Origin: Candidatus Microgenomates bacterium
GTDB taxonomy: Bacteria; Patescibacteriota; Microgenomatia; JACQLA01
Direction: 5' to 3'
DNA length: 64,000 nt
NCBI GenBank assembly: GCA_016204255.1
Contig: JACQLA010000005.1
Location: forward strand, 68,339-132,338
The first letter of the stretch is position 1. Each line of letters opens with the position of its first letter. Below, piece by piece: positions 147 to 60,723 of this stretch. The position numbers and the translations under genes are program-made. The notes below the pieces were generated by a model, which had not been told where the DNA came from, searched no databases, and worked only from the letters and a program-made list of their open reading frames with translations.

Positions 147-434
147 TCACGGTGCTGCTGTCTCCTCGTTGATATCTTCGGGCAGAGCGGATTCCTCTGC
201 ATAATCGGCAGGCTCAGGGCTTCGATTTATAATTAAAGTTTCTCCTTCGATGTTTATCACAAGTTGTGATGGATTCATCACCAGTGTAAGTGCCGGCAGT
301 TCTTGTGTAGCTTCCGGCACTTCCTTAAGGAGTGCCTCGATTGGTTCACGAACATACTTTTCAAGAAAGCGACTCATAGTGGGACCAGCCATTGAGTCGA
401 GGTGCTGCCAAGCCTTGTCTCTGTAAGTTTTCAA
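147..434 (-). CDS. hypothetical protein (95 aa)
   Basis: ORF from the track with a TTG start at 434; an in-frame ATG at 392 is an alternative. I recognise no motif. It lies in the GC-richer left edge of the window. Confidence 0.4.
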   Translation of the reverse strand: MKTYRDKAWQHLDSMAGPTMSRFLEKYVREPIEALLKEVPEATQELPALTLVMNPSQLVINIEGETLIINRSPEPADYAEESALPEDINEETAAP

Positions 435-523
435 AAAAAAGTTAAACTTTTTAGCCTCAACAAAAATGTAAAATTTGTAAAATTGAGGCTAATTTTGTTT
501 ACCAAAATTTTGAAAACTTACAC
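421..523. repeat. nested three-tier hairpin element, copy A (paralog at 20818-20920)
   Basis: The outer 14-bp inverted repeat is gtaagttttcaaaa (423-436) / ttttgaaaacttac (508-521). The inner inverted repeat is tagcctcaa / ttgaggcta. The blocks aaaagttaa, tttttagcctcaa, gaggcta and tgtttacca are shared with copy B. The element ends 1-2 nt from the stop codon of the 523..927 gene. Confidence 0.75.
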
Positions 524-16373: not shown

Positions 16374-17279
16374 TTAAAACCAACCGCTTCCCTTTTTGTT
16401 TTTATTCAATTCTTCAAATTCTTTAAGCAGCTCTTTCTGCTCACGACTAATTTTTTGGGGCACCTCAACAAGAATACGTACATATTGATCACCACGGCCG
16501 CTACTACGCAAATGAGGAACTCCTTTTCCCCGTAATCTTACCAATGAGCCGGGCTGGGTACCAGCCTTGATGTTTAATTTCAGTGGGCCATCGATGGTGG
16601 GTATGGACACCACCGCTCCCAAAACTGCCTGGACAAAACTGATAGGAAATTCGATGACCAGGTCATCTCCCTGACGATGAAAAACCTTATCCGGGCGCAC
16701 ATCCAAAACAAGATCAAATTCTTCAAATCTGATCCTTGAGCCATCAAGGACTCCGGCGGGAATCTTAATTCTCTTTCTTTTACCAGCAACCTCGACTTCT
16801 TTCTCCGCTCCTTTAACCGCCTCTATAAAATCAAGGGTCAAGGAATAAGCTGGTTTTCTTTGCCGCCGGCCAAAAGGTGAGCCGCCAAAAAATTGTTCAA
16901 AGATTTCAAACGGATCAGAAAATCCTCCAAAGTCAAAATCACCTTGACCCCCTTCTCCACCGGAAGTATAGTAAGTATAAGAAAACGGCCCCTGTCGATA
17001 AGTTCGGCCCTGATCAAACCCTCCAAAAGGTCCGCCAGCCCCTCCCGCGCCACCCTGGGTAAAGGCGGTATGTCCAAACTGGTCGTAAGCTGCTTTTTTC
17101 TCCGGATTGGATAAAATCTCGTAGGCTTCATTTATTTCTTTAAATTTTTCGTGGGCATCGGAAGCTTTATTATGATCCGGATGATACTCAAGAGCCATTT
17201 TCCGATAGGCTCTTTTCAATTCTTCAGGGCTTGCGTTTTTATTAACACCCAAAATTTGATAGTAATCACGCTTATCCAT
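16374..17279 (-). CDS. dnaJ: DnaJ-family co-chaperone lacking the CxxCxGxG zinc finger (class II-like)
   Basis: It has a J domain (DYYQILGV...HPDHN), a G/F-rich region and C-terminal substrate-binding domains. No cysteine repeats are present. Confidence 0.9.
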
Positions 17280-17307
17280 ATGTATTTACATGTATTCTAC
17301 CACCAAA

Positions 17308-17328
17308 TGGGCCGCCATTGGCGGCCCA
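17308..17328 (-). other. GC-rich stem-loop between dnaK and dnaJ
   Basis: The sequence tgggccgcc-att-ggcggccca forms a perfect 9-bp stem in an otherwise AT-rich spacer. It could act as a processing, attenuation or stability element inside the operon. Confidence 0.5.
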
Positions 17329-17354
17329 AATTTATTTTTTCTTTTTAAAAAAGG

Positions 17355-19274
17355 TTAACCTACGACTTCACCCTCTTCGATCTTTTCTTCAGCCTTTTTC
17401 CCGGTTTTTGTTCCGTTTCCCTCTGCCTCAGCCTGAGCTGTTTCTCCTGGCTGCGGACTAGTAGTATCTTGAGCTGAATCGGCTGAAGTATACATGGCCT
17501 GCCCCACTTTTTGTAAAGAATCAGAAAGATCTTTGGTCTTGGCCTCTAAATCTTCCTTTGTACCGGTTTCCAGAACGGCTTTTAGGGCAGCTACCTTCTC
17601 TTCAACTTCACTTTTGATTTCAGCCGGGACTTTATCGCCCCCCTCCCGCAGGGTTTTTTCGGCCGTAAAGATTAAATTATCGGCGGTATTTTTAGCCTCA
17701 ATCCTTTCTTTTTTGGCCTGATCTTCGCTAGCGTGAGCTTCCGCCTCTTTTGTCATCCGCTCCACTTCATCTTTACTCAAGCCGGTTGAACCGGTAATCT
17801 TAATACTTTGTTCCTTACCAGTTGCTTTATCCTTAGCTTTAACATTGAGAATGCCGGAGGCATCGATATCAAAGGTCACCTCAATCTGAGGAATACCTCG
17901 CGGCGCCGGCGGAATCCCGTCTAAAATAAACCGGCCCAAGGATTTATTGTCAGCGGCCATCGGTCTTTCTCCCTGCAAAACATTTATTTCAACTGAGGTC
18001 TGGTTGTCAGCCGCGGTTGAAAAAATTTGTGACTTGCTCGTCGGAATAGTGGCATTTCTGGAAATAAGCGGTGTGGCCACCGCACCTAAAGTCTCGATCC
18101 CCAACGTTAACGGCGTCACGTCAAGCAGCAAGACGTCTTTAACCTCACCACCCAAAACTCCACCCTGAATAGCGGCCCCAATTGCTACAACTTCATCAGG
18201 GTTAACCCCTCGATGAGGCTCTTTGCCAAAAAACTTTTGAACGGCTTCCGCAATTTTGGGCATGCGCGTCATACCACCGACTAAAATTACTTCATTAATA
18301 TCGCCGACTTTCATCTTGGCATCTTTTAAGCAGGCCTCCACCGGTTTAATGGTTTTTTGAACCAACTCATCAACAATTTGTTCAAGCTTGGCCCGGGTTA
18401 GCTTCATAGTTAAATGCAGAGGGCCGGCGGATCCCTGAGTAATAAATGGTTGATTTATCTCTGTTTCCTGAGCAGAAGACAGTTCAATCTTTGCTTTCTC
18501 GGCTGCTTCCCGAAGTCTTTGAAGCGCTTGAGGATCTTTTTTTAAATCAACATTATTCTCTTTTTTGAATTCATCGGCAATATAATCGATGATTACTTTG
18601 TCAAAATCGTCTCCTCCCAAATGGGTGTCACCATTGGTGGCCTTTACTTCATAAACTCCCTCTCCTAGCTCTAAAATAGAGATGTCAAAAGTCCCGCCGC
18701 CTAAATCATAAACTGCCACCGTATGGGCCTGTTTTTTATCCAAGCCATAGGCTAAAGCGGCGGCTGTCGGCTCATTAATAATTCTTAAAACTTCCAAACC
18801 GGCAATTTCCCCAGCCTGTTTAGTGGCTTGTCTCTGAGAGTCGTCAAAATAGGCCGGAACGGTAATAACTGCTTGTGTGACTTTTGAACCGAGGTAAGTT
18901 TCGGCGTCGGCTTTAATTTTTTGCAAAGTCATAGCCGAAATTTCTTGGGGGGTAAATGTTCTTCCACCAACTTCAACAACTGCCATTCCCTCGCGGCCCG
19001 ATTTAATAGTATAAGGCAACCATTTCATATCGTGTTGCACCGAGGAGTCAGTGAATTTTCGTCCCATTAATCTTTTAATTGAAAAAATGGTTGATCTGGG
19101 ATTAACAACCATCTGGCGTTTAGCCACATCGCCGACAAGATGTTTAATAGGCTCAACAACCGAAGGAATAACGTTGCGGCCTTCGGCCGAATGAATAATT
19201 TTAGGGGTGCCACCTTCCATAACGGACATTGCCGAATTAGTGGTGCCTAAATCAATACCAATTATTTTTCCCAT
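17355..19274 (-). CDS. dnaK: molecular chaperone DnaK (Hsp70)
   Basis: The 639-aa protein contains [17 protein letters not shown] and other canonical Hsp70 motifs. Confidence 0.98.
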
Positions 19275-20817: not shown

Positions 20818-20920
20818 CTGTCAGTTTGCATAAAAAGTTAACACTTTTTTTAGCCTCAAATTTGCAAATTTTGCAAACTCCCGAGGCTAGAAATGTTTAC
20901 CATTTCGTGCAAACTGACAG
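20818..20920. repeat. nested three-tier hairpin element, copy B (paralog at 421-523)
   Basis: The outer 13-bp inverted repeat is ctgtcagtttgca (20818-20830) / tgcaaactgacag (20908-20920). The inner inverted repeat is tagcctc / gaggcta. The loop carries tttgcaaa twice. The element ends 4 nt from the murJ stop codon. Confidence 0.75.
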
Positions 20921-27866: not shown

Positions 27867-29708
27867 ATGAAATCGTTTCTTCTTGAAGATTTAAATAGTC
27901 AACAGCAATCAGCCGTAAGTCAAACAGACGGTCCAATTTTAATTCTGGCAGGCGCCGGATCCGGCAAAACCAGAGTCTTAACCTATAAAATTGCCTATCT
28001 TATTGCCCAAAGCGGTGTCAGTCCGGAAAATATTTTGGCTTTAACTTTTACAAACAAAGCCGCCGCCGAAATGAAAAACCGAATTAAAAAATTAGTTGCT
28101 CGTTCCCCTGAGGCGACCTCCAAATTACCTTGGGCAAGCACTTTCCACTCATTTTGTGCCAGAATATTAAGAATTGAGGGCAAACATATTGATCTGGCGC
28201 CAAATTTTTTAATTTACGACCAGGCTGATCAAAAAGAGCTGATAAAAGCGGTGCTAAAAAAACTTGATCTTTCCCCCAAGAGCTTTTCCCCGGCGTCCGT
28301 CTTAAATACCATCAGCGGAGCTAAAAACGAACTAATTTCTGCTTTAGAATATTTACAGTACGCAAAGGGTTTTTGGCAGGAAACTGTCACCAAGATTTAT
28401 CTGGAATATCAAAAAGCGCTAGTTGCCAACTCGGCTTTAGATTTTGATGATCTGCTTTTAAAAACAAATGAGCTTTTTCAAAAGAATTCTTCCGTCTTAC
28501 AAAAATACCAAGATCGCTTTCATCATCTTCTTATTGATGAGTACCAAGACACAAATAACGCTCAATACCAATTAGGTAAGATGCTTGCCGGAAGATGGCG
28601 AAATATATGTGTGGTGGGCGATGCCTCTCAAAGTATTTACTCTTGGCGGGGAGCAGATTTTCGAAACCTCACCCGGTTTCAAGAGGATTTTCCTGATTTA
28701 AAGATCTTTAATCTGGAACAAAATTACCGATCGACCCAGAAAATTTTGGATGCCGCCTACGCCGTTATTACTCACAACCAATCTCATCCCATTCTAAAAC
28801 TTTGGACCGAAAATCCAGGCGGCGAAAAAGTAAATCTTTATAGTGCTCAAAACGAACATGATGAGGCAGAATTTATCGCCAACACCATTATTAATTACAA
28901 TGGTGTTCTTGGAGATTTTGCCGTTTTATATCGGACCAATGCCCAGTCGCGTGTTTTGGAAGAAGTTTTTTTACGCTCAGGACTACCCTATGCGCTCGTA
29001 GGAGGAACCAGATTTTATGAACGGCGGGAAATTAAGGATGTTTTAGCCTATTTAAAAATCTTCCATAATCCTAAGGATACCGTTTCTCTTAATCGGCTTG
29101 AAAAAATAGGAAAAACCCGTCTTAAAAAATTTATGGAATTTAACGAAGTCTCGAAAAAAAACCCCGAGCGAAATTTAACAACCTCTTATCTTCTTGATCA
29201 AATTTTGACAATTACGGGCTACCTAGATCTTTACGATCCTAAAGTTGAAGAGGAACTGATGCGGCTTGAGAACATTAAAGAGCTTGGAAGTGTGGCTCAA
29301 GAATTCCCTGACTTAGGCCAATTTCTGGAAAATGTGGCGCTTGTGGAGCAGGAGTATCTGCCCGACAGCTCAGCTCAGATCGAACAAACAGAAAGAATAA
29401 CTCTTATGACTCTCCACACGGCTAAAGGTCTGGAGTTCCCGGTGGTGTTTATTATCGGGATGGAGGAAGGAATTTTTCCCCATTCAAAAAGCCTTTTTGA
29501 TAAACAAGAACTTGAAGAGGAAAGGCGTCTTTGTTATGTTGGCTTTACCCGGGCGAAAAAAATGCTCTATCTGACCCATGCTGCACGCAGACTTTTTTTT
29601 GGCACTCAAACCGCCAATTTTATTTCCCGCTTCGTTTTAGATCTGCCGGAAAATTTAGTTACCCCGCTTTCTAGTCAGCAAACTCTACGCCAGGGCAGTT
29701 TTGGGTAA
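27867..29708 (+). CDS. UvrD/PcrA-type ATP-dependent DNA helicase (613 aa)
   Basis: It contains motif I (AGAGSGKTRVL), motif II (LIDEYQDTN), the motifs VGDASQSIYSWRGA, TLHTAKGLEF and YVGFTRAK. Confidence 0.9.
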   Translation: MKSFLLEDLNSQQQSAVSQTDGPILILAGAGSGKTRVLTYKIAYLIAQSGVSPENILALTFTNKAAAEMKNRIKKLVARSPEATSKLPWASTFHSFCARILRIEGKHIDLAPNFLIYDQADQKELIKAVLKKLDLSPKSFSPASVLNTISGAKNELISALEYLQYAKGFWQETVTKIYLEYQKALVANSALDFDDLLLKTNELFQKNSSVLQKYQDRFHHLLIDEYQDTNNAQYQLGKMLAGRWRNICVVGDASQSIYSWRGADFRNLTRFQEDFPDLKIFNLEQNYRSTQKILDAAYAVITHNQSHPILKLWTENPGGEKVNLYSAQNEHDEAEFIANTIINYNGVLGDFAVLYRTNAQSRVLEEVFLRSGLPYALVGGTRFYERREIKDVLAYLKIFHNPKDTVSLNRLEKIGKTRLKKFMEFNEVSKKNPERNLTTSYLLDQILTITGYLDLYDPKVEEELMRLENIKELGSVAQEFPDLGQFLENVALVEQEYLPDSSAQIEQTERITLMTLHTAKGLEFPVVFIIGMEEGIFPHSKSLFDKQELEEERRLCYVGFTRAKKMLYLTHAARRLFFGTQTANFISRFVLDLPENLVTPLSSQQTLRQGSFG

Positions 29709-30411
29709 TCCATCGACGATATTCTTTTTGACAAAGGTCAAAATTTGGGTTTTTAGGGTCAAGAATTGGCATGCAATTAATCGTTTTAGTCGAAGGACAT
29801 TTGAATTTTTGTTCACCGTAGAACTTCATGCTGGAAATCATTTCAAGATAAATCTTATCTAAATTTTCGCTGGGATTTTTTGCGATGAGTTCAAAAACTT
29901 TATCGTGTTCCTGAAAGAAAATCCGCACAACCGGATAATCCCATGACGAGGCTTCCTGAAAAGTTAGAAAAGCCTCATGATCCCCAACATTAAAATTAGA
30001 CTTAGTCGGGATCTTTTTAAGATCTACGTCTTCATGGCGATACCAGCGCAACCAGGTGGGAATCGCCACTTTTTGCTTGTTTCCCCAAACAACGACTTGA
30101 AAATTTCCTTCTCGGCCCTCAAGGTTAACTTGCTGCCAGATCATACCGTCTGGCAGGGTTTTAAGCTTGGCGGCATTCTCAATATTCCATTCAGTCTTTT
30201 CCCATCCAGGCGGAAAATTTATCTCATACCCATGTAAAGAATTTAGATAAGTCTGCCAGATTAGAACAGTCGGGGTGGGAGAAAGGGTGGGGAAAAGCCG
30301 GGGGAAATTTTTCTCATTTTGAAATGTTTTTCCTAAAAATAGAGCGGCAATCACTATTAAAACAATCACACCAGCTACTAAAGGGAGTATTAAGGGTAAC
30401 CGGGTCTTCAT
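29671..30411 (-). CDS. hypothetical membrane-anchored exported protein (Cys-rich C-terminus)
   Basis: An N-terminal TM anchor and a PT linker are followed by a Trp-rich domain. The 3' end overlaps the convergent helicase gene by 38 nt. Confidence 0.55.
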   Translation of the reverse strand: MKTRLPLILPLVAGVIVLIVIAALFLGKTFQNEKNFPRLFPTLSPTPTVLIWQTYLNSLHGYEINFPPGWEKTEWNIENAAKLKTLPDGMIWQQVNLEGREGNFQVVVWGNKQKVAIPTWLRWYRHEDVDLKKIPTKSNFNVGDHEAFLTFQEASSWDYPVVRIFFQEHDKVFELIAKNPSENLDKIYLEMISSMKFYGEQKFKCPSTKTINCMPILDPKNPNFDLCQKEYRRWITQNCPGVEFAD

Positions 30412-30478
30412 TGATTTTATCTTAGCATAAATGCGTCAATAGAGTATAATTGAGAAGTAAACAAGTTTCTTACTTCCC

Positions 30479-30553
30479 GTCATTCCGAGCGTAGTCGAGG
30501 AATCTTTTTCATCAAGGTCTTTAATTAGATCCCTCCACGTTGGTCGGGATGAC
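30479..30553. repeat. GTCATT-type palindromic element, copy a
   Basis: The arms gtcattccgagc (30479-30490) and ggtcgggatgac (30542-30553) form an imperfect inverted repeat, and the inner pair cgaggaatct / agatccctc also pairs. The element lies just upstream of the FemAB-like gene. Confidence 0.7.
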
Positions 30554-30579
30554 GACTGCGAAATTTGTTTGATATTATT

Positions 30580-32940: not shown

Positions 32941-35850
32941 CTAATCAGTATCACAAAGAAGCTTATACTCGCAATATTTACAAAGCTCGCTTTTGGTACA
33001 ACGGAAATCAGATTGAGCGATTTTTTCCGCCCAAGAAAAAATTTCTTCTTTGGCTTTTTCCAACTGTTCTTTAGTCCGCACTGTTGTTATCTTTTGGCTA
33101 TTTTCAAAAAAATAAAGGCTCAAAAAAACTTCCTCCGGTTTTTTGCCTAATGGCGGCTCCAGCACTTCAGTGGCGGCCAAAGCGTATATCGTCAACTGTA
33201 AATTTTGATCAACTTCCTTTTGACTGGGAGGACGACTACCGGTTTTATAATCAATAATTTCAATTTTTCCATCTCCTAAGGAATCAACCCGATCAAGCCT
33301 TCCCACAACTCGAAAACTCCTCAGAGGGAAAACAAAAGATTTTTCCAAGGCCAACGGGGTGATTTGAGAATCCTTTGTTTTTAGCCAAAACTCGTGCAAA
33401 AATCTTTCTCCCTGTTGAAAGAGTAAATCTTCATGCTTTTTACTTTTATAACCCTCCCCAACCCAGTTTTCCTTAAGTAGGGCTAAAAGTTTCTCTTCTC
33501 CCGGATTTTTATCAGTAATTTTCAACCGGTAAAAATCCCGCAACGCCGCATGTAAACTAATGCCAAAAGATTGAGCAGATGAGGGAGGGGTGGGAATTTT
33601 TAAAATAAATTTTAATTTATAATGAAGAGGGCAATTCATAAAGGCCTCAATTTGAGAGTACGAAAGATAGAGAGGTCGAGAGTTCAATCTATTAACCGCT
33701 GTTTCCGGCTCCACCGGCTTAGCCCATTCTAAAAAAGAGAGTTGTTTACTTGAGGCGTTGATTTTTTGTTTCCCAAATACTTCTTCTCCTAGCGCCTCCC
33801 CTACAAAGGGCGAAATTTTTCTTTCACGTTTACCCTCACCATAAAAATTGGCCGATGTTAAAAAAAGTCGATCTTTAGCTCTGGTCATTCCGACATAAAA
33901 AAGCCTGCGCTCTTCCTCTAAATGAGCATCGCCCTCGGGCAGAATTTCTTTTATTAAATCCTGGGGAATGGGAATTTGCTCCTGGCGTTCAGTTGTAGGA
34001 AAACGCTGGGCAACCAAATTAACTAAGAAAACTACCGGAAACTCAAGGCCCTTAGAAGAATGAACTGTTAAAAGATTAACGGCGTTTACTTCCGCCCAAT
34101 CGGTATCTGAAGCCTGGGGTGATTCCCCCAATTCCTGTGACATTTCAATCCAGTCAACTACCGCCGAAACGGCAGCATCCTCGTGGGTAACTTCATAACT
34201 TTTAATTTTTCCAAAAAACTTAGAGACGTTTTGGGCACGCTTTTCATCCTGGGCATTTTTATACACCGTCAAACTAGATAAAAGACCGGAGTCGGAAAGG
34301 AAATAGTAAAGGATTTGGCCAGCGCTTTCCTTGGATAAAAGTTTCAGATGACGATTTACCATCGCCACAATTTTTTCTAATTTTATTTTTGTTTCCTCAC
34401 TGATAATCGGTCTGGTGTTGGCTATTAAGCGGCCATTTTCTTTTCCGGTGGCCAACTCACAGGATTCAAGTAAGGAAAGGTTGGTTTTTTTAGCGAAGCT
34501 TGTCAATGCCGCTACGTCCCGGGCGGAAATCTCAAAAATATCCATTGCTAAAACCCGATAAAAAGCAACCGAGTCTTCAACGTTATACAAAACCTTAAGG
34601 TAGGCAATTAAATCCTTTACCTCCGGCTGACGGAAAAGCATTCCCGGTCCTAAAAATTGATAGGGGACCCCCGCACGAACCAAAGCCCGGGTAAAAGGTT
34701 CGGCGTGAGAATTGGCCCGAAATAAAATAGCAAAATCTTTAAATTCATAGTTCGTTTTTTTAAGTTGTTTAATCTTTCGGGCGATTTCTTCAGCTTCATC
34801 TTCGACTCGCTCCGCATGAATCCACTCCACCTTTTCCTCGTCCACTTTTCTCATCCGCTTAAGATTTTTACTAATCCCCAGTTTTACTTCCAGGGTATCG
34901 GGATCGTTAAATTTAATCAGGCGATGAGCGTGATCAAGAATAGTTTGGGTTGAGCGATAATTTTTGGTCAAAATAACTTGTTTGACTCTCTTGTACTCCT
35001 CCATAAATTGTAGAATATTGGAAATAGCCGCCCCGCGGAATTTATAAATTGACTGAGAATCATCCCCAACAACCGTCAAATTGGGATTTTCCATAGGAGG
35101 AGCTAAGATTTTTAAAAGATTGTACTGGGCAAAATTAGTATCTTGGAACTCATCAACCAAAACATATTTGAATTGCTTTTGATATTGACTCAAAATATTT
35201 GGTCTGGCGCGAAAAAGTTTAAGGGTATTGGCTATTAAATCGGCAAAATCAGCCATTCCTCCCTTAGTTTTAAGCTCTTCATAAATTCGGTAGGCCTTGA
35301 CCAATTCTAATATTTTTTTCCTTTCTTCCTCTGGCAGATTTTGACCCTTAGTAAAATTTAGGTATTCTTCCGGCTCGATATCTTCATCTTTGAGCCGGGA
35401 AAAATGCTGGAGCATCCCCCCAATAAATTTATTTGGGTTGCCTAAAGGACGGAAGTAATTCAGCTCAAATTTAAAAAGACTGGCTCGTAGAAAAATTATC
35501 GTCTCTGCCTCCGTCATTAAGCGATAATCGGGGCTAAGACCAATATGGACTGCCTCATTCCGAAGGACCCGATCGCAAAAGGAGTGGAAGGTGGAAATCC
35601 ACATCTGAGTGTAGCCGTAAGGCATAGCTATATCGACTCTCTCCTCCATTTCCCGCACCGCTTTTTCAGTAAAAGTGAGGGCTAAAATTTCGGCCGGGTG
35701 GGCCAGATTTTGGGAAATCAACCATTTAATCCGCTCTGTTACCACCGTTGTTTTGCCGGTTCCGGCGCCGGCAATTATTAGAAGGGGACCCTTGTCATGT
35801 TTTACCGCCTCCAGTTGTTCATCATTCAATTTTTTTTCGCCGTTGCTCAC
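32941..35850 (-). CDS. UvrD-type helicase fused to a C-terminal Fe-S PD-(D/E)XK (AddB/Cas4-like) nuclease
   Basis: The helicase motifs AGAGTGKTTVV, VDEFQDTN, VGDDSQSIYKFRGA, TVHSSKGLEF and YVGMTRAK are present. The C-terminus has NCPLHYK, GRLDRVD, IIDYKTG and C-x5-C-x2-C-x5-C (CTKSELCKYCEYKLLC). Confidence 0.85.
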   Translation of the reverse strand: MSNGEKKLNDEQLEAVKHDKGPLLIIAGAGTGKTTVVTERIKWLISQNLAHPAEILALTFTEKAVREMEERVDIAMPYGYTQMWISTFHSFCDRVLRNEAVHIGLSPDYRLMTEAETIIFLRASLFKFELNYFRPLGNPNKFIGGMLQHFSRLKDEDIEPEEYLNFTKGQNLPEEERKKILELVKAYRIYEELKTKGGMADFADLIANTLKLFRARPNILSQYQKQFKYVLVDEFQDTNFAQYNLLKILAPPMENPNLTVVGDDSQSIYKFRGAAISNILQFMEEYKRVKQVILTKNYRSTQTILDHAHRLIKFNDPDTLEVKLGISKNLKRMRKVDEEKVEWIHAERVEDEAEEIARKIKQLKKTNYEFKDFAILFRANSHAEPFTRALVRAGVPYQFLGPGMLFRQPEVKDLIAYLKVLYNVEDSVAFYRVLAMDIFEISARDVAALTSFAKKTNLSLLESCELATGKENGRLIANTRPIISEETKIKLEKIVAMVNRHLKLLSKESAGQILYYFLSDSGLLSSLTVYKNAQDEKRAQNVSKFFGKIKSYEVTHEDAAVSAVVDWIEMSQELGESPQASDTDWAEVNAVNLLTVHSSKGLEFPVVFLVNLVAQRFPTTERQEQIPIPQDLIKEILPEGDAHLEEERRLFYVGMTRAKDRLFLTSANFYGEGKRERKISPFVGEALGEEVFGKQKINASSKQLSFLEWAKPVEPETAVNRLNSRPLYLSYSQIEAFMNCPLHYKLKFILKIPTPPSSAQSFGISLHAALRDFYRLKITDKNPGEEKLLALLKENWVGEGYKSKKHEDLLFQQGERFLHEFWLKTKDSQITPLALEKSFVFPLRSFRVVGRLDRVDSLGDGKIEIIDYKTGSRPPSQKEVDQNLQLTIYALAATEVLEPPLGKKPEEVFLSLYFFENSQKITTVRTKEQLEKAKEEIFSWAEKIAQSDFRCTKSELCKYCEYKLLCDTD

Positions 35851-40583: not shown

Positions 40584-41747
40584 CTAGTCAAATCTGAGAG
40601 CGGAGAGCATCTGGTTAAAAGTTTGAACAAGGTTTTGTTTTATGGAGCTTTCATTGTCAACATAAAGAGAAATTATGTAAGACAAGTCGTTTTTGTTGAA
40701 AAATATCTTATGGGTATAAAGTTTAATCCCATTCGTTCTATCATCTTCCACCCACTCAATTTTATTAGCCTTCACTCTTCCTAAATTGATTTCAGCTGCG
40801 CGACTACCCGCACGGCTTTCCGCATTGCTAATTAGCACATCAAGTGGGGTGGATCTGACTGCAATATCAATCACGCCTTTACCAATAAAATTTTTCGCCT
40901 CTGGACGAGAAATAGAACGAGAAGAGAGCAGTTCGGAGTCGGGCGCCTGTAACTCTGAACTTAGAAGCATATCAGAAGGGTAACTTACCTTAAATCCATA
41001 TTTTTCATTTTTATAAATTTTCCAGCCAGTAGTGTTGCCAGCTTGGTTTTGATCCAAAAATTTGAAGGTAGAGAGGATTTGATCAACACCTGTTATGTAT
41101 GAACCACTATACTGTTTTATTGTTGGCCACCTAACTATGTAAAAATAGTTTCCTTGCAAAGCAATAAAGGTCGTTATTGATTCAAATGCGTCGAAATCAA
41201 ATTGTATGCCAGTTAAGGACCCATAGGTTTTTGCCACCCTATTTGCCACTGACGTTGAGGGTTGTATTGTGGCTTCAATCGATTTGATATAGTCGTCTAT
41301 TGTATTTATTGTTCCCACGCTCGTATCTCCTTTAGACATTCTTGCAATGGTAATAGAAAAACCTGACCTGGTGTCAGAACCTTGCTTATAATCGGGAGCC
41401 GTAATAAAGACACAGGAATCATTTGAATCCTGGATAAAATATTTCTGCGCGTTCCATTCCTGTGGATATTTTACTGAAAAACTACAAGATGATATATATG
41501 TTTTCCAATTATTAGTAGTTGGGTCTGCGGACTGGGTAATTGACGGTTCGGGGGCAAGGATTGGAAAAGGAGAGGGGCCCTTGAATGCTTGTTTTTGGGA
41601 ATATTGCCAGCCGGCGTAAAAAATACTTGTGGCAAGTAGTGCTCCGATAACTAAGAAGCCAGTCATCCAAAATTTTCTGAAAGGAACCACTATCGGTCTT
41701 TCCGCCGAATCCGACTGAATTTTCTGATCTGAATTATCTTCTTCCAT
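40584..41747 (-). CDS. hypothetical membrane-anchored exported protein with two related domains
   Basis: It has an N-terminal TM anchor. A repeated signature occurs (WKTYISSCSFSVKYPQEW and WKIYKNEKYGFKVSYPSDM). Confidence 0.6.
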   Translation of the reverse strand: MEEDNSDQKIQSDSAERPIVVPFRKFWMTGFLVIGALLATSIFYAGWQYSQKQAFKGPSPFPILAPEPSITQSADPTTNNWKTYISSCSFSVKYPQEWNAQKYFIQDSNDSCVFITAPDYKQGSDTRSGFSITIARMSKGDTSVGTINTIDDYIKSIEATIQPSTSVANRVAKTYGSLTGIQFDFDAFESITTFIALQGNYFYIVRWPTIKQYSGSYITGVDQILSTFKFLDQNQAGNTTGWKIYKNEKYGFKVSYPSDMLLSSELQAPDSELLSSRSISRPEAKNFIGKGVIDIAVRSTPLDVLISNAESRAGSRAAEINLGRVKANKIEWVEDDRTNGIKLYTHKIFFNKNDLSYIISLYVDNESSIKQNLVQTFNQMLSALRFD

Positions 41748-41788
41748 TCCTATAGTTTAAATCTATCTTCGGAAAGTTGTCAAATTAA

Positions 41789-41956
41789 TGTCATTTCGAA
41801 TGGAATGAGAAATCTAAAAAGGGCGCATCTAAACGATGCCTAAATGCGTCTGTCATTGCGAGGAATCTCGCCAGAGGCGGATGACGAAGCAATCTAGATC
41901 GGGTAGATTCCTATATCAAGATTGCCAACGCCTCATTTTATTCGGCTCGCAATGAC
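41789..41956. repeat. GTCATT-type palindromic elements, copy b (half element 41789-41815 + full 105-bp element 41852-41956)
   Basis: The arms gtcattgcgag (41852-62) and ctcgcaatgac (41946-56) form a perfect 11-bp inverted repeat. The inner pairs are gaggcg/cgcctc and gcaatct/agattgc. The half element tgtcatttcgaatggaatgagaaatct is 25/27 identical to 43092-43118. Confidence 0.8.
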
Positions 41957-42005
41957 GTAAAGGAGCAAACTATAGGGACTCAAAAGATAATACTGGATTG
42001 GGGGA

Positions 42006-43022
42006 TTAATCTTTCACTGTTTCCAGTTGGCTGATTTCCTCGTCGGCGACACTTTCGCCTAAAGATTGTGTGGAGGTGAGTTTTTGGCCAAGCATGGTAA
42101 AACCAGAGGCAACATTACTCATCTGATTATAGGCATTTTGGATATGACGTCCCAAAACCCCCAAATTTTCATCGACCTTATTGTAATCTTTTTGAATCGC
42201 GCGGATAGCAGCCAAAATTGCTCTTGCCCGGGACTCGATTTTTTGCCCCTCAAATGACATTAAAATTGCCTTCATATAGGCGTAAAAGGTCATCGGCGAA
42301 ACCGGCAAAACTCCTTTTTTCCCGGCGTAATCAAAAAGATCAGCATTGTTGATTATTTCGTAATAAATAGTTTCAGAGGGGATATACATTAGAGCATAAT
42401 CAATTGTTCCTTCTTCAGTTAAAATATATTTTTTAGAAATATCATCAACGTGTTTTTTGACATCACGGACAAATTCTTTTTCCACGATCTTTTTCTCGGC
42501 CTCGTCTTCAGCGGAGGCCATTTTGCGAAAATTTTCCATAGGGAATTTGGAGTCAACGGGGATAATGCCCGCGGCAGTTTTAATCGCTGCATCCACCATC
42601 GCTCCGGATTTAAAACTGTATTGTAAATGAAAAGACTGTTTAGGCAGCATTTGCCCCAAAAGCTCTTTTAAAACCTGCTCGCCGATGTTTCCCCGCAGTT
42701 TGGGGGAGCGCAAAAATTCCTGGATATCTTTCATTCCCCGGCCGATCTCCGACATCTCGCCGATATTTTTTTGGACCTGGGAAATAACCCGGGCGGCATT
42801 ATCGAGTCTTTCGTTTAAGGATTTTGTCGAAAGAGCAATGCTTTGGGAAAAAACTTTATTTTGATCGTCCATTCGCGCAGAGGTGGATTTAAGCCATTCT
42901 AAAAGTTCTTCGTTGGGACCATTTTTTTCACCAATTTGGGAGATTTTTTTATTTAACCAGAAGGCTAATCCCGCAAAGGTTAAAAGGACTAAAGCCAAAA
43001 GGAGATAGATTTCATTTCCCAT
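42006..43022 (-). CDS. rmuC: DNA recombination protein RmuC
   Basis: It has an N-terminal TM helix, a coiled coil, LRSPKLRGNIGEQVLKELL and a C-terminal nuclease-like domain (DAAIK...IPVDSKFP). Confidence 0.88.
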   Translation of the reverse strand: MGNEIYLLLALVLLTFAGLAFWLNKKISQIGEKNGPNEELLEWLKSTSARMDDQNKVFSQSIALSTKSLNERLDNAARVISQVQKNIGEMSEIGRGMKDIQEFLRSPKLRGNIGEQVLKELLGQMLPKQSFHLQYSFKSGAMVDAAIKTAAGIIPVDSKFPMENFRKMASAEDEAEKKIVEKEFVRDVKKHVDDISKKYILTEEGTIDYALMYIPSETIYYEIINNADLFDYAGKKGVLPVSPMTFYAYMKAILMSFEGQKIESRARAILAAIRAIQKDYNKVDENLGVLGRHIQNAYNQMSNVASGFTMLGQKLTSTQSLGESVADEEISQLETVKD

Positions 43023-43092
43023 AAATTTAAGGACTTTGGAAGTTTTTGTATTTTATCATTTTTTAACATAAAATTAAATTACAACTAATTCT

Positions 43093-43220
43093 GTCATTCC
43101 GAATGAAATGAGAAATCCCGCCTTGTTGCGAGGCAGGTAGGCGCGAAGTGCCTCAATTCACGCTTCGCTAGATTTCTCGCTGGAGTTTACACTGAGCGTG
43201 ACGAATGTGCTCGAAATGAC
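43093..43220. repeat. GTCATT-type palindromic element, copy c (128 bp)
   Basis: The pairs are gtcattccga (43093-) with tcgaaatgac (43211-43220), gagaaatc with gatttctc, and gcgaag with cttcgc. The element lies upstream of rmuC. Confidence 0.75.
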
Positions 43221-43243
43221 GATGGATTATTTACAATTAAACT

Positions 43244-43594
43244 ATGCGGCGGCGACAGAAACTGGGTCCTAAAATTTTTTTCGCTCTTCTTTTTTGGTTA
43301 GGCTGGGTTTATCTTGTTTTAAGAATTCCTCCTGATAAATTTTACCTTTTAGTTTTGTTTTTCTTTCTTTTTTTTATAGCTTCGGGGTTAACTTTTTCCT
43401 TGATTTTAAAAAACCGGCTTTATGGTTTTTTGTTTGCTGCAATAATCACTGTCTTTTTGCTTTTACGGATTTTAAAAATGGCCAATATTTTAAATCTTGT
43501 CCTACTTTCATCTTTGGGTTTAACCTTGATACTCTTTTTTTGGTCACCCAGGCACAAAAGAAAGTTACCGCCACAAAATTTTCCCCAGCCTTGA
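43244..43594 (+). CDS. hypothetical polytopic membrane protein (116 aa)
   Basis: ORF from the track with three or four hydrophobic helices. Confidence 0.5.
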   Translation: MRRRQKLGPKIFFALLFWLGWVYLVLRIPPDKFYLLVLFFFLFFIASGLTFSLILKNRLYGFLFAAIITVFLLLRILKMANILNLVLLSSLGLTLILFFWSPRHKRKLPPQNFPQP

Positions 43595-59562: not shown

Positions 59563-60723
59563 ATGCGTATCTTAGGAATTGAGAGCTCTTGTGATGAAAC
59601 CGGGGCGGCGATTGTCGAAGACGGAACAAAAATTTTATCCAATATTGTTGCCTCCTCTCAGGAATTACATATAAAAACCGGTGGCATTATTCCGGAAGTT
59701 GCCTCGCGCGAACAAATCAAATATATTGTTCCGGTCATCAATCAAGCACTTAAAGGAGCACTTCCTGAAACTCTAAACTCTGCGCCATATGTCCTGTCTC
59801 AAATAGACGCCATCGCAGTTACGGTTGGCCCAGGACTCATCGGCTCACTTTTGGTCGGCGTGGAAACAGCCAAAACATTGGCCTACCTTTGGAATAAACC
59901 GATTATCCCCGCTAACCATTTACTCGCTCATCTTTATGCTAACTGGGTCTCTCCCTTGTTATCGCAAGACCATAAAGTGGCGAAGCAATCCCTTAATCTC
60001 AATAGTAAGATTGCCGCGTCGCCTACGGCTCCTCGCAATGACGAATCTCAAACTCCAAGCTTCCCCGCCGTCGCTTTGATTGCTTCCGGCGGTCATACCG
60101 ACCTCCTTTTAATAAAGAATCACGGTAAAATCCGGTGGCTGGGAGGAACACGGGATGACGCGGCCGGTGAGGCTTTTGACAAAATCGCCCGACTTTTAGA
60201 ACTCCCCTATCCCGGCGGACCGGAAATTGCGGCCGAAGCCACAAAACTAAAAACTAAAAACTTAAAACTTACAATTAAGTTGCCGCGCCCATTGATGGAC
60301 GCCGATGATTTTGACTTCAGTTTTAGTGGACTAAAAACCGCTGTTTTAAGAGAAGTCAATAATCTCAAGGCTAAACACTATAATGATACATATTATTATA
60401 GTGAAATAATTCCTTCACTCGCCTACGAGGTTCAAGAGGCCATTACGGATGTTTTAGTTACTAAAACCATCCGCGCCGCCCAAAAATATCGGGTTAAATC
60501 AATCTTACTCGGCGGCGGTGTTGTGGCCAATGAAAGACTTCGAGAAAAAATGTCAAAATCTGTTCTTAAGTTTTTTGGTTCTTCAGTTTCAATGTTTGTG
60601 CCTCCGACCCGATTGTGCACCGATAATGCCGTCGTCATCGCTTCAGCCGCCTTTTTTAATTATAAACCTGTTCCTTGGAAAAAAATCCAAGCCCACCCGG
60701 ATCTTTACTTCCAGTCTCAATAG
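59563..60723 (+). CDS. tsaD: tRNA N6-adenosine threonylcarbamoyltransferase TsaD, with an internal ~30-aa insertion
   Basis: The motifs MRILGIESSCDETGAAIVE, GPGLIGSLLVG, ANHLLAH, SGGHT, DDAAGEAFDK and YPGGP are present. An SD sequence (aaggagag) lies upstream of the ATG at 59563, so the track start at 59473 is not used. Confidence 0.93.
   Translation: MRILGIESSCDETGAAIVEDGTKILSNIVASSQELHIKTGGIIPEVASREQIKYIVPVINQALKGALPETLNSAPYVLSQIDAIAVTVGPGLIGSLLVGVETAKTLAYLWNKPIIPANHLLAHLYANWVSPLLSQDHKVAKQSLNLNSKIAASPTAPRNDESQTPSFPAVALIASGGHTDLLLIKNHGKIRWLGGTRDDAAGEAFDKIARLLELPYPGGPEIAAEATKLKTKNLKLTIKLPRPLMDADDFDFSFSGLKTAVLREVNNLKAKHYNDTYYYSEIIPSLAYEVQEAITDVLVTKTIRAAQKYRVKSILLGGGVVANERLREKMSKSVLKFFGSSVSMFVPPTRLCTDNAVVIASAAFFNYKPVPWKKIQAHPDLYFQSQ
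59958..60042. repeat. GTCATT-type palindromic element copy embedded in frame in tsaD
   Basis: The sequence gttatcgcaag...ggcgaagcaatcc...aagattgcc...ctcgcaatgac is colinear with element b at 41852-41956. Confidence 0.7.

What the first reader, a model, noticed from the sequence alone, without database searches (positions are those of the whole stretch)
41789..41956. GTCATTSCGAG...CTCGSAATGAC palindromic element family (REP/MITE-like), compound copy downstream of rmuC
At least four loci share the termini (C/T)GTCATT(N)CGA(G/A) and TCG(N)(A/G)ATGACG with long imperfect internal pairing: 30479-30553, 41789-41956, 43093-43220 and 59958-60042.

This locus has a 105-bp element with a perfect 11-bp terminal inverted repeat and two further internal stems. 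It is preceded by an unpaired half element (41789-41815) that is 25/27 identical to the left end of copy c. That arrangement suggests nested or truncated insertions.

No transposase or RAYT-like gene is present in the window, so the mobilising activity, if any, is encoded elsewhere.
Basis: seen in the sequence. Interest (0 to 1): 0.6.

Follow-up and report, generated by a model that had tools for sequence, protein, structure and literature searches.

The report
Known CGTC-tagged palindromic repeat family
These are copies of a small hairpin-forming DNA repeat family that is already described in many bacteria; here it turns up in a tiny-genome uncultured bacterium, where one copy is even translated as an extra, floppy loop of the essential enzyme TsaD.

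Summary
GTCATTNCGA occurs 8 times in the window against 0.34 expected.

Each unit has a YGTC tag, an ATTNC/GN'AAT stem, a purine-rich GA/GNR internal loop, a variable GC hairpin and a C-initial tail. Pairs sit with their tags outward.

This matches the "CGTC-tagged REP" superfamily (Di Nocera 2013), which includes Neisseria dRS3 and Rickettsia RPE-4/-6. The same element is present in at least 120 GTDB loci from more than 12 phyla and on at least 120 viral contigs. It has no target-site duplication.

The 2013 puzzle of a missing transposase now has a candidate answer: ~95-aa GIY-YIG ssDNA nucleases (Ssn, Chenal 2025). I re-confirmed that their genes sit between two tag-outward units in 58 of 80 metagenomic loci.

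Neither the window nor 250 element-bearing loci encode Ssn or a Y1 transposase. The window's "GAG-type" units also fail the published Ssn-motif pattern, so their partner enzyme is inferred, not shown.

One finding looks new. Full elements sit in frame in the same TsaD loop in several CPR lineages whose nearest relatives have empty loops.

Verdict: a new member of a known kind, of moderate interest.

The parts
41851..41957 (.). Copy b2, the flagged element: a tag-outward (HH) dimer of two GAG-type CGTC units. The left unit is 41851-41897 (+) and the right unit is 41917-41957 (-). It lies 49 nt downstream of the rmuC stop codon and upstream of the rmuC terminator-like hairpin.
   Evidence: Sequence. 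CM R1 scores 37.7 and 27.6 bits. DNA fold -24.4 kcal/mol, z = -4.7. The right unit is almost identical to a unit in locus L118.
41789..41817 (+). Copy b1: a single T-type unit, TGTC-ATTTCGAA-TGGAA-TGAGAAAT-CT. It sits between the rmuC terminator-like hairpin and the promoter-like site of the next gene.
   Evidence: CM R1 16.2 bits, E = 0.05. 24 of 29 positions identical to the left unit of copy c. The ATTTC/GAAAT stem covaries with the G/C and C/G types.
41815..41848 (-). Terminator-like hairpin CGCATTTAGGCATCGTTTAGATGCG followed by CCCTTTTT, on the minus strand. It is a context feature that separates b2 from b1; it is not part of the repeat.
   Evidence: Consensus scan. A consensus match only, not shown to function.
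42006..43022 (-). rmuC gene (context).
   Evidence: Pfam RmuC, E = 4.9e-53.
43092..43221 (.). Copy c: a tag-outward dimer. The left unit is 43092-43120 (+, T/C-type). The right unit is 43168-43221 (-, with a 30-nt insert). It lies in the divergent region between the rmuC start and the ORF 43244-43594.
   Evidence: CM R1 14.6 and 17.2 bits. As a whole hairpin it is weak, z = -1.0.
30478..30554 (.). Copy a: a tag-outward heterodimer. The left unit is 30478-30507 (+, ATTCC GAG-type). The right unit is 30525-30554 (-, ATCCC type: CGTC-ATCCCGACC-AACGT-GGAGGGAT-C). It lies in the divergent region between the ORF 29671-30411 (-) and a FemAB-family gene.
   Evidence: CM R1 29.7 and 12.6 bits. z = -2.9. 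The same heterodimer type forms the tsaD insert of locus L126, 64 of 75 positions identical.
59957..60043 (.). Copy d: a tag-outward dimer inserted in frame in tsaD. The right unit 60006-60043 (-) is intact. The left unit (about 59957-59993) has decayed to TGTTATCGCAAG...GAAGCAATCC. It encodes roughly residues 132-160 (LSQDHKVAKQSLNLNSKIAASPTAPRND).
   Evidence: CM R1 44.4 bits for the right unit. 70 of 85 positions identical to the tsaD insert of L127. AlphaFold pLDDT is below 50 for residues 133-159 in an otherwise confident model.
59563..60723 (+). tsaD gene (386 aa) that hosts copy d.
   Evidence: 100% identical to P0001, which NCBI annotates as TsaD. Pfam TsaD hit in the gene table.

Best explanation
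The four loci are copies of the CGTC-tagged REP superfamily: four dimers and one single unit.

**Anatomy.** Each unit of about 28-55 nt is a single-strand hairpin. It has a Y-GTC tag, a 5-bp basal stem ATTNC/GN'AAT, a purine-rich internal loop (GA opposite G-N-R, compatible with tandem G.A pairs), a variable GC-rich distal hairpin, and a tail that starts with C. Two units placed with their tags outward make the 75-130-bp palindrome.

**How it most likely works.**
- Shown in the literature for the sister NTS/dRS3 type: the folded unit on single-stranded DNA is bound, and cut just 5' of the tag, by a small GIY-YIG nuclease (Ssn). The ssn gene itself sits between two tag-outward units.
- Inferred here: the window's gene-less dimers are non-autonomous derivatives of that kind of cassette. 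They were spread in trans, or by recombination or horizontal transfer, by an enzyme encoded outside the window.

**State in this genome.** The copies look old and fixed. They are identical across sampled populations, and two are partly decayed.

**Local consequences (inferred).**
- b2 would be transcribed as a long hairpin in the rmuC 3' UTR.
- d is tolerated because it adds a disordered surface loop to TsaD.
For: **The family is real and structured.**
- The motif is strongly enriched, and a model built only from other genomes recovers the window copies.
- N and N' are complementary in 269 of 279 units, as G-C, C-G and T-A types.
- Three dimers with unlike halves keep the pairing within each unit while breaking it between units.
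- The arms of the distal hairpin covary: 3.43 paired positions against 1.54 +/- 0.06 in chimaera controls.
- Flanking bases are -1 Y and +1 R in 96% of elements, and there is no target-site duplication.

**It matches the published description.**
- Tag CGTC or TGTC, stem starting AT, C-initial tail, mostly tag-outward (HH) dimers, heterodimers, intragenic copies, no transposase (PMC3733652).

**Evidence of mobility.**
- tsaD sites are filled in some lineages and empty in their relatives.
- The same heterodimer type appears at unrelated sites in different genomes.
- The element occurs on phage contigs.

**The Ssn link.**
- PMC11893778.
- My own replication: 58 of 80 ssn loci are flanked on both sides by YGTCAT units, at 6.0 per kb near the gene against 0.57 per kb further away.
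- Patescibacteria-annotated MAGs do encode Ssn; in L339, whose gene order resembles the window's, a unit-ssn-unit cassette lies between dnaK and dnaJ.
- The positions that paper found critical, GTC before the palindrome and C after it, are present in every GAG-type unit I collected (GTC was part of the search pattern; the C was not imposed).
- Perfect-stem and GAG-type units co-occur in 11 of 120 GTDB loci and 21 of 120 viral loci.
Against: - The window's units and the canonical GAG-type units do not match the published SRM search pattern.
- The units that actually flank ssn genes are perfect-stem types (ATTCCCGC 90 times) and almost never GAG-type (ATTGCGAG 4 times).
- No ssn homologue was found in the window or in about 250 loci chosen for GAG-type elements.
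- No gene is recurrently enclosed by GAG-type unit pairs.
- Ssn-repeat pairs co-evolve and show limited cross-cutting (PMC11893778), so a different partner is possible.
- How a hydrolytic GIY-YIG nuclease would copy a repeat is unknown.
- No insertion polymorphism was seen within this species' population, so there is no sign of current activity.
Confidence: 0.7

Rival explanations
1. The elements are REPINs mobilised by a RAYT, that is an IS200/IS605-type HUH Y1 transposase encoded elsewhere in the genome.
For: - The architecture resembles a REPIN: two inverted hairpin units with a spacer.
- There is no target-site duplication, as expected for ssDNA Y1 transposition.
- A Y1_Tnp gene exists in a related MAG (L124 5279-5977, Pfam E = 2.8e-7).
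Against: - The tag is CGTC, not GTAG.
- The L124 Y1 gene is flanked by AAGAGGWCCTCTT hairpins, not by CGTC units.
- No Y1 homologue was found in the window or in 249 element-bearing loci.
- The literature found no RAYT flanked by CGTC units in any CGTC-positive species (PMC3733652).
Confidence: 0.08
2. GAG-type CGTC elements have their own, still unidentified, partner protein. This could be a divergent Ssn clade or an unrelated enzyme. The resemblance to NTS/SRM would then be limited to the tag and the basal stem.
For: - The units fail the SRM pattern.
- ssn genes are flanked by perfect-stem units, not GAG-type units.
- Each ssn examined carries its own repeat variant.
- The GAG / G-N-R purine loop is nearly invariant across phyla, which suggests a specific recognition feature.
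Against: - The tag, the basal 5 bp and the C/CAG tail are shared with NTS-type units. These are the positions shown to matter for Ssn binding and cleavage.
- The two types co-occur on the same contigs.
- No alternative candidate gene emerged.
Confidence: 0.2
3. The elements are primarily host regulatory RNA or DNA structures, such as terminators, mRNA 3'-end stabilisers or protein-binding sites, kept for that function rather than being selfish repeats.
For: - b2 lies in the rmuC 3' UTR just before a terminator-like hairpin.
- The family is reported to lie mostly downstream of genes (PMC3733652).
- The hairpins are conserved by covariation.
Against: - Copies a and c sit in divergent promoter regions, and copy d sits inside a coding sequence.
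- Copies c and d are decaying.
- Sites are present or absent among orthologues.
- SsnA does not bind RNA.
- No Rfam family matches.
Confidence: 0.08
4. The elements are classical MITEs, deletion derivatives of a DDE-transposase insertion sequence.
For: Terminal inverted repeats of 11 bp, a size of 75-130 bp, and no coding capacity.
Against: - There is no target-site duplication in 120 of 131 elements.
- Each half is an autonomous hairpin unit that also occurs singly, as in b1.
- No DDE transposase lies in the window or next to copies.
Confidence: 0.02

Closest known systems
CGTC-tagged REPs, families CGTC-1 to -4 (Di Nocera, De Gregorio & Rocco 2013, BMC Genomics 14:522; PMC3733652)
   Same: - A tag of CGTC or TGTC.
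- A stem that begins AT.
- A tail that begins with C.
- Mostly tag-outward (HH) dimers with spacers of 20-100 bp, including heterodimers.
- Occasional single and grouped units.
- Intragenic in-frame copies.
- No adjacent transposase gene.
   Different: - The window's units have a GA/G-N-R mismatch block inside the stem.
- Some carry long distal hairpins of 14-30 nt instead of 4-5-nt loops.
- Tails are mostly CTN rather than CCA.
- A T-type stem (ATTTC/GAAAT) occurs.
- The paper listed 5 phyla. It listed none of Patescibacteria, Planctomycetota, Acidobacteriota, Firmicutes or phages for the CGTC type.
- Figure 2 is not available to me, so I could not assign a subfamily.
NTS / Ssn-related motifs and the Ssn GIY-YIG ssDNA nucleases (Chenal et al. 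2025, Nat Commun 16:2388; PMC11893778)
   Same: - The YGTC tag.
- The ATTCC/ATTGC basal stem.
- A C immediately after the palindrome, and a CAG tail.
- Hairpin-forming and orientation-specific.
- Hundreds of copies across phyla.
- A cassette of unit-gene-unit with tags outward, which is the same geometry as the gene-less dimers here.
   Different: - The published SRM pattern is not matched.
- No ssn gene lies in the window.
- ssn genes I retrieved are flanked by perfect-stem units, not GAG-type units.
- Cleavage of GAG-type units has not been tested.
Rickettsia palindromic elements (RPE; Ogata et al. 2000/2002, as cited in PMC3733652)
   Same: - Palindromic repeats inserted in frame in protein-coding genes of a reduced-genome bacterium.
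- RPE-4 and RPE-6 are CGTC-4 and CGTC-1 according to PMC3733652.
- GAG-type dimers occur in Rickettsiales loci L030, L091 and L116.
   Different: - The host is a CPR-type organism, not Rickettsia.
- Only one of five loci in the window is intragenic.
- Recurrent use of one and the same loop (in TsaD) across lineages is, to my knowledge, not part of the RPE description.
REPIN-RAYT systems (Bertels & Rainey 2011; PMC3116915)
   Same: - Two inverted hairpin units form the replicative unit.
- The elements are non-autonomous, with the enzyme encoded once elsewhere.
- There is no target-site duplication.
   Different: - The tag is CGTC rather than GTAG.
- No RAYT is associated.
- REPIN-RAYT systems are described as vertically inherited within lineages (abstracts); here the same terminal sequence is shared across phyla.

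Membership tests
CGTC-tagged REP superfamily (PMC3733652) | An unpaired terminal tag of CGTC (variants TGTC, CCTC) at one end of the unit. | tested here: met
   All 8 window units start CGTC or TGTC. Position -1 is C or T in 126 of 131 elements elsewhere.
CGTC-tagged REP superfamily (PMC3733652) | A stem of 8-9 bp whose first two positions are complementary A and T. | tested here: inconclusive
   The stem starts AT in all units, and the basal 5 bp pair perfectly or covary. Positions 6-7 are G.A/A.G-type mismatches rather than Watson-Crick pairs. Whether the paper's degenerate consensus allows this cannot be checked without Figure 2.
CGTC-tagged REP superfamily (PMC3733652) | A loop of 4-5 nt (variable in some Bradyrhizobium, K. 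olearia and M. prima families). | tested here: inconclusive
   Met for b1, c-left and a-right (5 nt) and nearly for a-left (6 nt). Not met for b2L, b2R, c-right and d-right, which carry structured inserts of 14-30 nt.
CGTC-tagged REP superfamily (PMC3733652) | A short unpaired tail, consensus CCA. | tested here: inconclusive
   The tail starts with C in every unit. Elsewhere CCAG is commonest (94 of 269). In the window the tails are CTT, CTA, CCC and similar.
CGTC-tagged REP superfamily (PMC3733652) | Mostly tag-outward (HH) dimers; no flanking transposase gene. | tested here: met
   The window holds four HH dimers and one singleton. No transposase family was found in the window's ORFs.
NTS / Ssn-related motif (PMC11893778) | Matches the SRM search pattern HGTCWYN(0-2)YYVSBRHN(0-5)WNVSBRGN(0-2)RNCYNB. 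| tested here: not met
   No window unit and no canonical GAG-type unit matches. The NTS control does match.
NTS / Ssn-related motif (PMC11893778) | The GTC immediately 5' of the palindrome and the C immediately 3' of it, which that paper found critical for cleavage and binding. | tested here: met
   Both are present in all 86 aligned units (the GTC was part of the pattern used to collect them) and in all window units; the C was not imposed by the search pattern.
NTS / Ssn-related motif (PMC11893778) | A cd10448-type GIY-YIG ssn gene in the same genome, typically flanked by the repeat. | not testable with these tools
   None lies in the 64-kb window or in about 250 GAG-type loci. The rest of the source MAG could not be scanned. 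ssn genes retrieved elsewhere are flanked by perfect-stem units.
NTS / Ssn-related motif (PMC11893778) | Bound and cut by Ssn only as single-stranded DNA. | not testable with these tools
   This needs an in vitro assay.
REPIN / RAYT system | A GTAG tag and an associated HUH Y1 transposase flanked by the repeat. | tested here: not met
   The tag is CGTC. No Y1 homologue lies in the window or in the loci. The one Y1 gene seen, in L124, is flanked by a different hairpin.
MITE (DDE-type) | Terminal inverted repeats plus a fixed-length target-site duplication. | tested here: not met
   Terminal inverted repeats are present, but 120 of 131 elements have no abutting direct repeat.
Rickettsia palindromic elements (RPE) | A palindromic repeat inserted in frame in a functional gene, adding a surface peptide. 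| tested here: met
   Copy d keeps the tsaD reading frame. The insert is a loop with pLDDT below 50 in a model with pTM 0.88. The named RPE families themselves are Rickettsia-specific, so this shows that the element works like an RPE, not that it belongs to a named RPE family.

The most novel reading that the evidence does not exclude
The GAG-type subfamily is GTCATTSCGAG...GRRGSAATC, with an invariant purine internal loop. It is a distinct, still-active, horizontally travelling element class with three notable features.

- Its partner enzyme is not the characterised Ssn clade.
- It is conserved almost base for base across more than 12 phyla and on phages.
- It has repeatedly inserted in frame into one particular loop of the essential enzyme TsaD in candidate-phyla-radiation bacteria. 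That would imply either a target preference or an RPE-like process of protein-loop innovation outside Rickettsia.
Probability: 0.2. Interest if true: 0.65.

Novelty: new member of a known kind. Interest (0 to 1): 0.4.

Why it matters
- **For annotation.** These elements produce spurious small ORFs and odd peptide stretches (SLRG...PRND, VIPSE...GMT, VIASEAKQS, LLRFARND) in proteins from many phyla. Recognising them prevents mis-annotation.
- **For biology.** The window links three literatures: the CGTC REPs of 2013, Rickettsia RPEs, and the Ssn ssDNA nucleases of 2025. It extends them to Patescibacteria and phage contigs.
- **A testable gap.** The most widespread variant I saw (GAG-type) is not captured by the published Ssn-motif pattern, and I never found it flanking an ssn gene. 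Its partner is therefore an open, directly testable question.
- **A natural experiment.** The recurrent in-frame occupation of one TsaD loop shows how selfish hairpin repeats can remodel essential proteins in minimal genomes.

Tried and rejected
- **Rfam.** No family matched at gathering thresholds across the window, or at E <= 10 across 41700-43300.
- **Literature search by the literal 11-mers.** It returned only unrelated primer hits.
- **Peptide search for in-frame copies in other proteins.** The first query was too short.
- **Y1 transposase lead in L124.** It is a real Y1_Tnp gene, but it is flanked by AAGAGGWCCTCTT hairpins, not CGTC units. It has no homologue elsewhere in my loci.
- **Gene between elements in L019.** It is an ordinary HAD-like hydrolase ORF.
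- **Search for an autonomous GAG-type cassette.**
  - Clustering ORFs enclosed by +/- unit pairs found only duplicate contigs.
  - Two viral scans for unit pairs 322-442 bp apart found only element arrays and a phage HTH gene.
  - An hmmsearch with an Ssn profile over all GAG-type loci and the window found nothing.
- **Ssn genes on PLSDB replicons.** Each is flanked by its own CGTC or CCTC variant, and none by GAG-type units.
- **Population polymorphism of b, c and d.** None was found; all contigs are identical.
- **The 33884 motif hit.** Rejected as chance.
- **Target motif at the tsaD site.** The CGCAAT seen in one empty site is not conserved in the others.

Full report

Yes. The four loci read as described. 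GTCATTNCGA occurs 8 times in the window against 0.34 +/- 0.59 expected, and no shuffle reaches 8. The flagged element at 41852-41956 is 105 bp with a perfect 11-bp terminal inverted repeat. As single-stranded DNA it folds into one long hairpin at -24.4 kcal/mol, z = -4.7. The half element at 41789-41817 is 24/29 identical to the left end of copy c.

I built a covariance model (R1) from 86 repeat units taken only from other organisms. I ran it over the window with filters off. Only the left end of the 59958-60042 copy is missed; it has decayed to GTTATCGCAAG. A ninth motif hit at 33884 lies inside a helicase gene, has no partner, and is treated as chance.

Loci b, c and d are 100% identical in contigs assembled independently from several other samples. 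Assembly artefact is therefore excluded.

**2. Anatomy**

From 279 half elements the unit is as follows:

- a tag, Y-GTC;
- a stem, ATTNC;
- GA;
- a G...C variable hairpin;
- G-N-R;
- GN'AAT;
- a tail that starts with C, most often CCAG.

Four lines of evidence show that each half folds on its own.

- N and N' are complementary in 269 of 279 units. The types are G-C (239), C-G (28) and T-A, the last seen in the window. On the curated alignment every cell of the basal helix pairs.
- Three dimers have one G-type and one C-type half. They keep the pairing within each half and break it between halves.
- The arms of the variable hairpin are complementary within a unit but not between units: 3.43 paired positions against 1.54 +/- 0.06 in chimaeras.
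- The left and right variable hairpins of one element usually differ.

The internal loop, GA opposite G-N-R, is nearly invariant. It is compatible with tandem G.A pairs, and the commonest core is GCGAAGC. This structural reading is my inference.

Outside the element only -1/-2 (pyrimidine) and +1/+2 (purine) are biased. 120 of 131 elements have no abutting direct repeat. These are therefore not classical MITEs.

**3. Distribution**

The 120 GTDB loci include the following groups:

- Alpha-, Beta- and Gammaproteobacteria, with many cultured Bradyrhizobium and Sphingomonadales;
- cultured Bacteroidota (Mucilaginibacter, Pedobacter, Flavobacterium);
- Planctomycetota, Desulfobacterota, Chloroflexota, Acidobacteriota, Gemmatimonadota and Firmicutes;
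- Patescibacteria, Margulisbacteria and Zixibacteria;
- Rickettsiales.

MAG mis-binning could inflate this list, but the isolates alone span phyla. One example lies next to a portal gene.

**4. What it is called**

Di Nocera et al. 2013 (PMC3733652) defined the "CGTC-tagged REPs". Their description covers:

- a tag of CGTC, TGTC or CCTC;
- a stem of 8-9 bp starting AT;
- a loop of 4-5 nt, variable in some Bradyrhizobium families;
- a tail of about CCA;
- mainly "HH" dimers, defined as dimers with the tags outside;
- homo- and heterodimers;
- intragenic copies;
- no associated transposase.

In their scheme Neisseria dRS3 is CGTC-1, and Rickettsia RPE-6 and RPE-4 are CGTC-1 and CGTC-4. The window's elements fit this description. 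Two caveats are listed in the membership table: the GA mismatch block in the stem, and the long inserts in some units. Without their Figure 2 I cannot name the subfamily.

**5. Context in the window**

The window comes from MAG GCA_964420235.1, contig CAYQSR010000003.1. Its gene content is housekeeping and of the CPR/Patescibacteria type. The phylum assignment is my inference from the annotations of homologues.

- **b2** lies 49 nt after the rmuC stop codon and before a terminator-like hairpin with a T-run at 41848-41815 on the minus strand.
- **b1** lies between that hairpin and a promoter-like TTGACA/TAAACT upstream of a PsbP_2-like gene. These are consensus matches only.
- The "compound" locus is therefore a singleton plus a dimer on either side of a terminator. 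It is not a nested insertion.
- **a** and **c** lie in divergent intergenic regions.
- No transposase family appears in any ORF of 90 aa or more.

**6. The tsaD copy**

Copy d lies inside tsaD (59563-60723) and keeps the reading frame. It encodes about 28 extra residues, between the NHLLAHLYANW and FPAVALIASGGHT motifs.

- Among 120 homologues this loop ranges from 30 to 72 residues. Eight to ten homologues carry recognisable element peptides such as SLRG...KQS...EIAT...PRND or VIPSE...GMT.
- DNA confirms intact, full elements at this spot in L124, L125 and L127. These share one reading frame with the window copy. L126 carries one in another frame, built from the same heterodimer type as window copy a. 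L128 and L129 have empty sites.
- The element-bearing proteins are scattered among nearest neighbours with short loops, at 71-78% identity outside the loop. Together with the intact 11-mers in otherwise diverged genes, this argues for several independent gains at one loop. I did not exclude an old gain followed by many losses.
- An AlphaFold model of the window protein is confident (pTM 0.88) except at residues 133-159, where pLDDT is below 50 and no secondary structure is predicted. This fits a tolerated surface loop, as described for RPEs.

**7. Who moves them?**

There are no Y1 homologues in the window or in 249 element-bearing loci. The one Y1_Tnp gene met in passing, in L124, is flanked by a different hairpin.

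A 2025 paper (PMC11893778) supplies a better candidate.

- The 28-nt NTS, CGTCATTCCCGCGMAVGCGGGAATCYRG, contains dRS3.
- NTS and the related "SRM" repeats are bound and cut, only as ssDNA, by ~94-aa GIY-YIG nucleases called Ssn.
- The ssn genes are typically flanked as NTS-ssn-NTS.
- The GTC before the palindrome matters for cleavage. The C after it matters for binding.

I recovered this protein family from a recalled consensus sequence. It gave 8000 hits, all listed ones with PF01541, including Patescibacteria and Daviesbacteria proteins. It is 60% identical to the Neisseria gonorrhoeae locus.

I then fetched 80 metagenomic loci.

- 58 of 80 have YGTCAT units within 250 bp on both sides.
- The arrangement is stereotyped: a plus-strand unit about 40 bp upstream and a minus-strand unit overlapping the stop codon.
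- Unit density is 6.0 per kb near the gene against 0.57 per kb further away.

In a MAG annotated as Patescibacteria (L339) such a cassette sits between dnaK and dnaJ. In the window those two genes are adjacent. The gene-less tag-outward dimer is thus the same geometry with the gene removed.

**8. Limits of that link**

- The units flanking ssn genes are perfect-stem types: ATTCCCGC 90 times, ATTGCGAG 4 times.
- GAG-type units fail the published SRM pattern.
- No ssn lies in the window or in any GAG-type locus.
- No gene is recurrently enclosed by GAG-type unit pairs.
- Each ssn on PLSDB replicons has its own repeat variant.

In favour of a shared or related enzyme:

- the tag, the basal stem and the 3' C are shared;
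- the two types co-occur on 11 of 120 GTDB loci and 21 of 120 viral loci.

I therefore rate family membership (CGTC REP) as high. I rate Ssn-type mobilisation as the best available inference, but an inference. How a hydrolytic GIY-YIG enzyme would copy a repeat is unknown.

**9. Verdict**

This is a real, non-random repeat family of a known kind, newly seen in this lineage. The window's copies look old: they are fixed in the population, and two are decaying. The parts that go beyond the literature I could search are:

- the breadth of the GAG-type variant, including CPR genomes and phage contigs;
- its absence from the published Ssn-motif definition;
- the recurrent in-frame use of one TsaD loop.

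Noticed in passing
window 422-522 and 20818-20920: A second, unrelated palindromic repeat of about 100 bp, in two copies: CTGT(A/C)AGTTT(T/G)CA...GTTAAAC...TAGCCTCAA...TTGCAAATTTTGCAAA...TGAGGCTAA...GTTTAC...TG(A/C)AAACT(T/G)ACAG. The second copy lies between the murJ stop codon and the hrcA start.
   Followed up: partly
TsaD homologues P0002-P0120 (loop aligned to window 59950-60060): The same TsaD loop carries other recurrent insert peptides that do not look CGTC-derived. Examples: RL(R/Q)TTAVDG (P0066, P0080, P0083, P0100, P0112), IEPALPAGRHRTKCIIEIK (P0045, P0046, P0051, P0120), SENS..Q..R.SD.LKIR.S (P0010, P0063) and TVEQL...KTVKK...TDYC (P0008, P0009, P0021). They may come from other small insertion elements.
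   Followed up: no
L124 5205-6009: A 232-aa Y1_Tnp (IS200-like) gene in a related MAG (its TsaD is 59% identical to the window's). It is flanked by inverted AAGAGGACCTCTT / AAGAGGTCCTCTT hairpins, a RAYT/REPtron-like arrangement unrelated to the CGTC family. A lone TGTC-ATCCCGAA-CTAG-TTCGGGAT unit lies about 90 bp downstream.
   Followed up: partly
L339 9893-10330, compared with window 16374-19274: In another CPR MAG a unit-ssn-unit cassette (GIY-YIG, 100 aa) sits between dnaK and dnaJ. In the window dnaJ (16374-17279) and dnaK (17355-19274) are adjacent with a 75-bp spacer. This is a presence/absence difference for the whole cassette.
   Followed up: partly
L345 (Azospirillum lipoferum 4B plasmid AZO_p3) 1391-1900: An ssn gene with CGTCATCCCCGCGAAGGCGGGGATCCAG dimers on both sides is inserted between sufB and sufC, inside an operon.
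   Followed up: no
window 41917-41957, compared with L118: The "variable" hairpin of the right unit of b2 (GCCGAATAAAATGAGGC) is almost identical to one in a MAG labelled Candidatus Caenarcanales (GCCGAATGAAATGAGGC). This suggests either horizontal spread of whole units or MAG mis-binning.
   Followed up: no
L166 5836-6627 and L349 6116-6502 (IMG/VR contigs): A small phage HTH protein gene next to a portal gene is bracketed by GAG-type elements in two related viral contigs.
   Followed up: no
Ssn proteins P0130, P0132, P0133, P0176, P0206, P0232 and others (C-termini); P0137, P0172, P0177, P0216 (N-termini): Annotated Ssn proteins have tails such as TGFPLSRE* or N-terminal extensions such as SFPRKRES. 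These are translations of the flanking repeat units. The stop codon TGA is supplied by the AATGAC tag.
   Followed up: partly
window 33884-33894: An isolated GTCATTCCGAC inside the UvrD/PD-(D/E)XK helicase gene. It has no inner motif and no partner, and is judged a chance match.
   Followed up: yes
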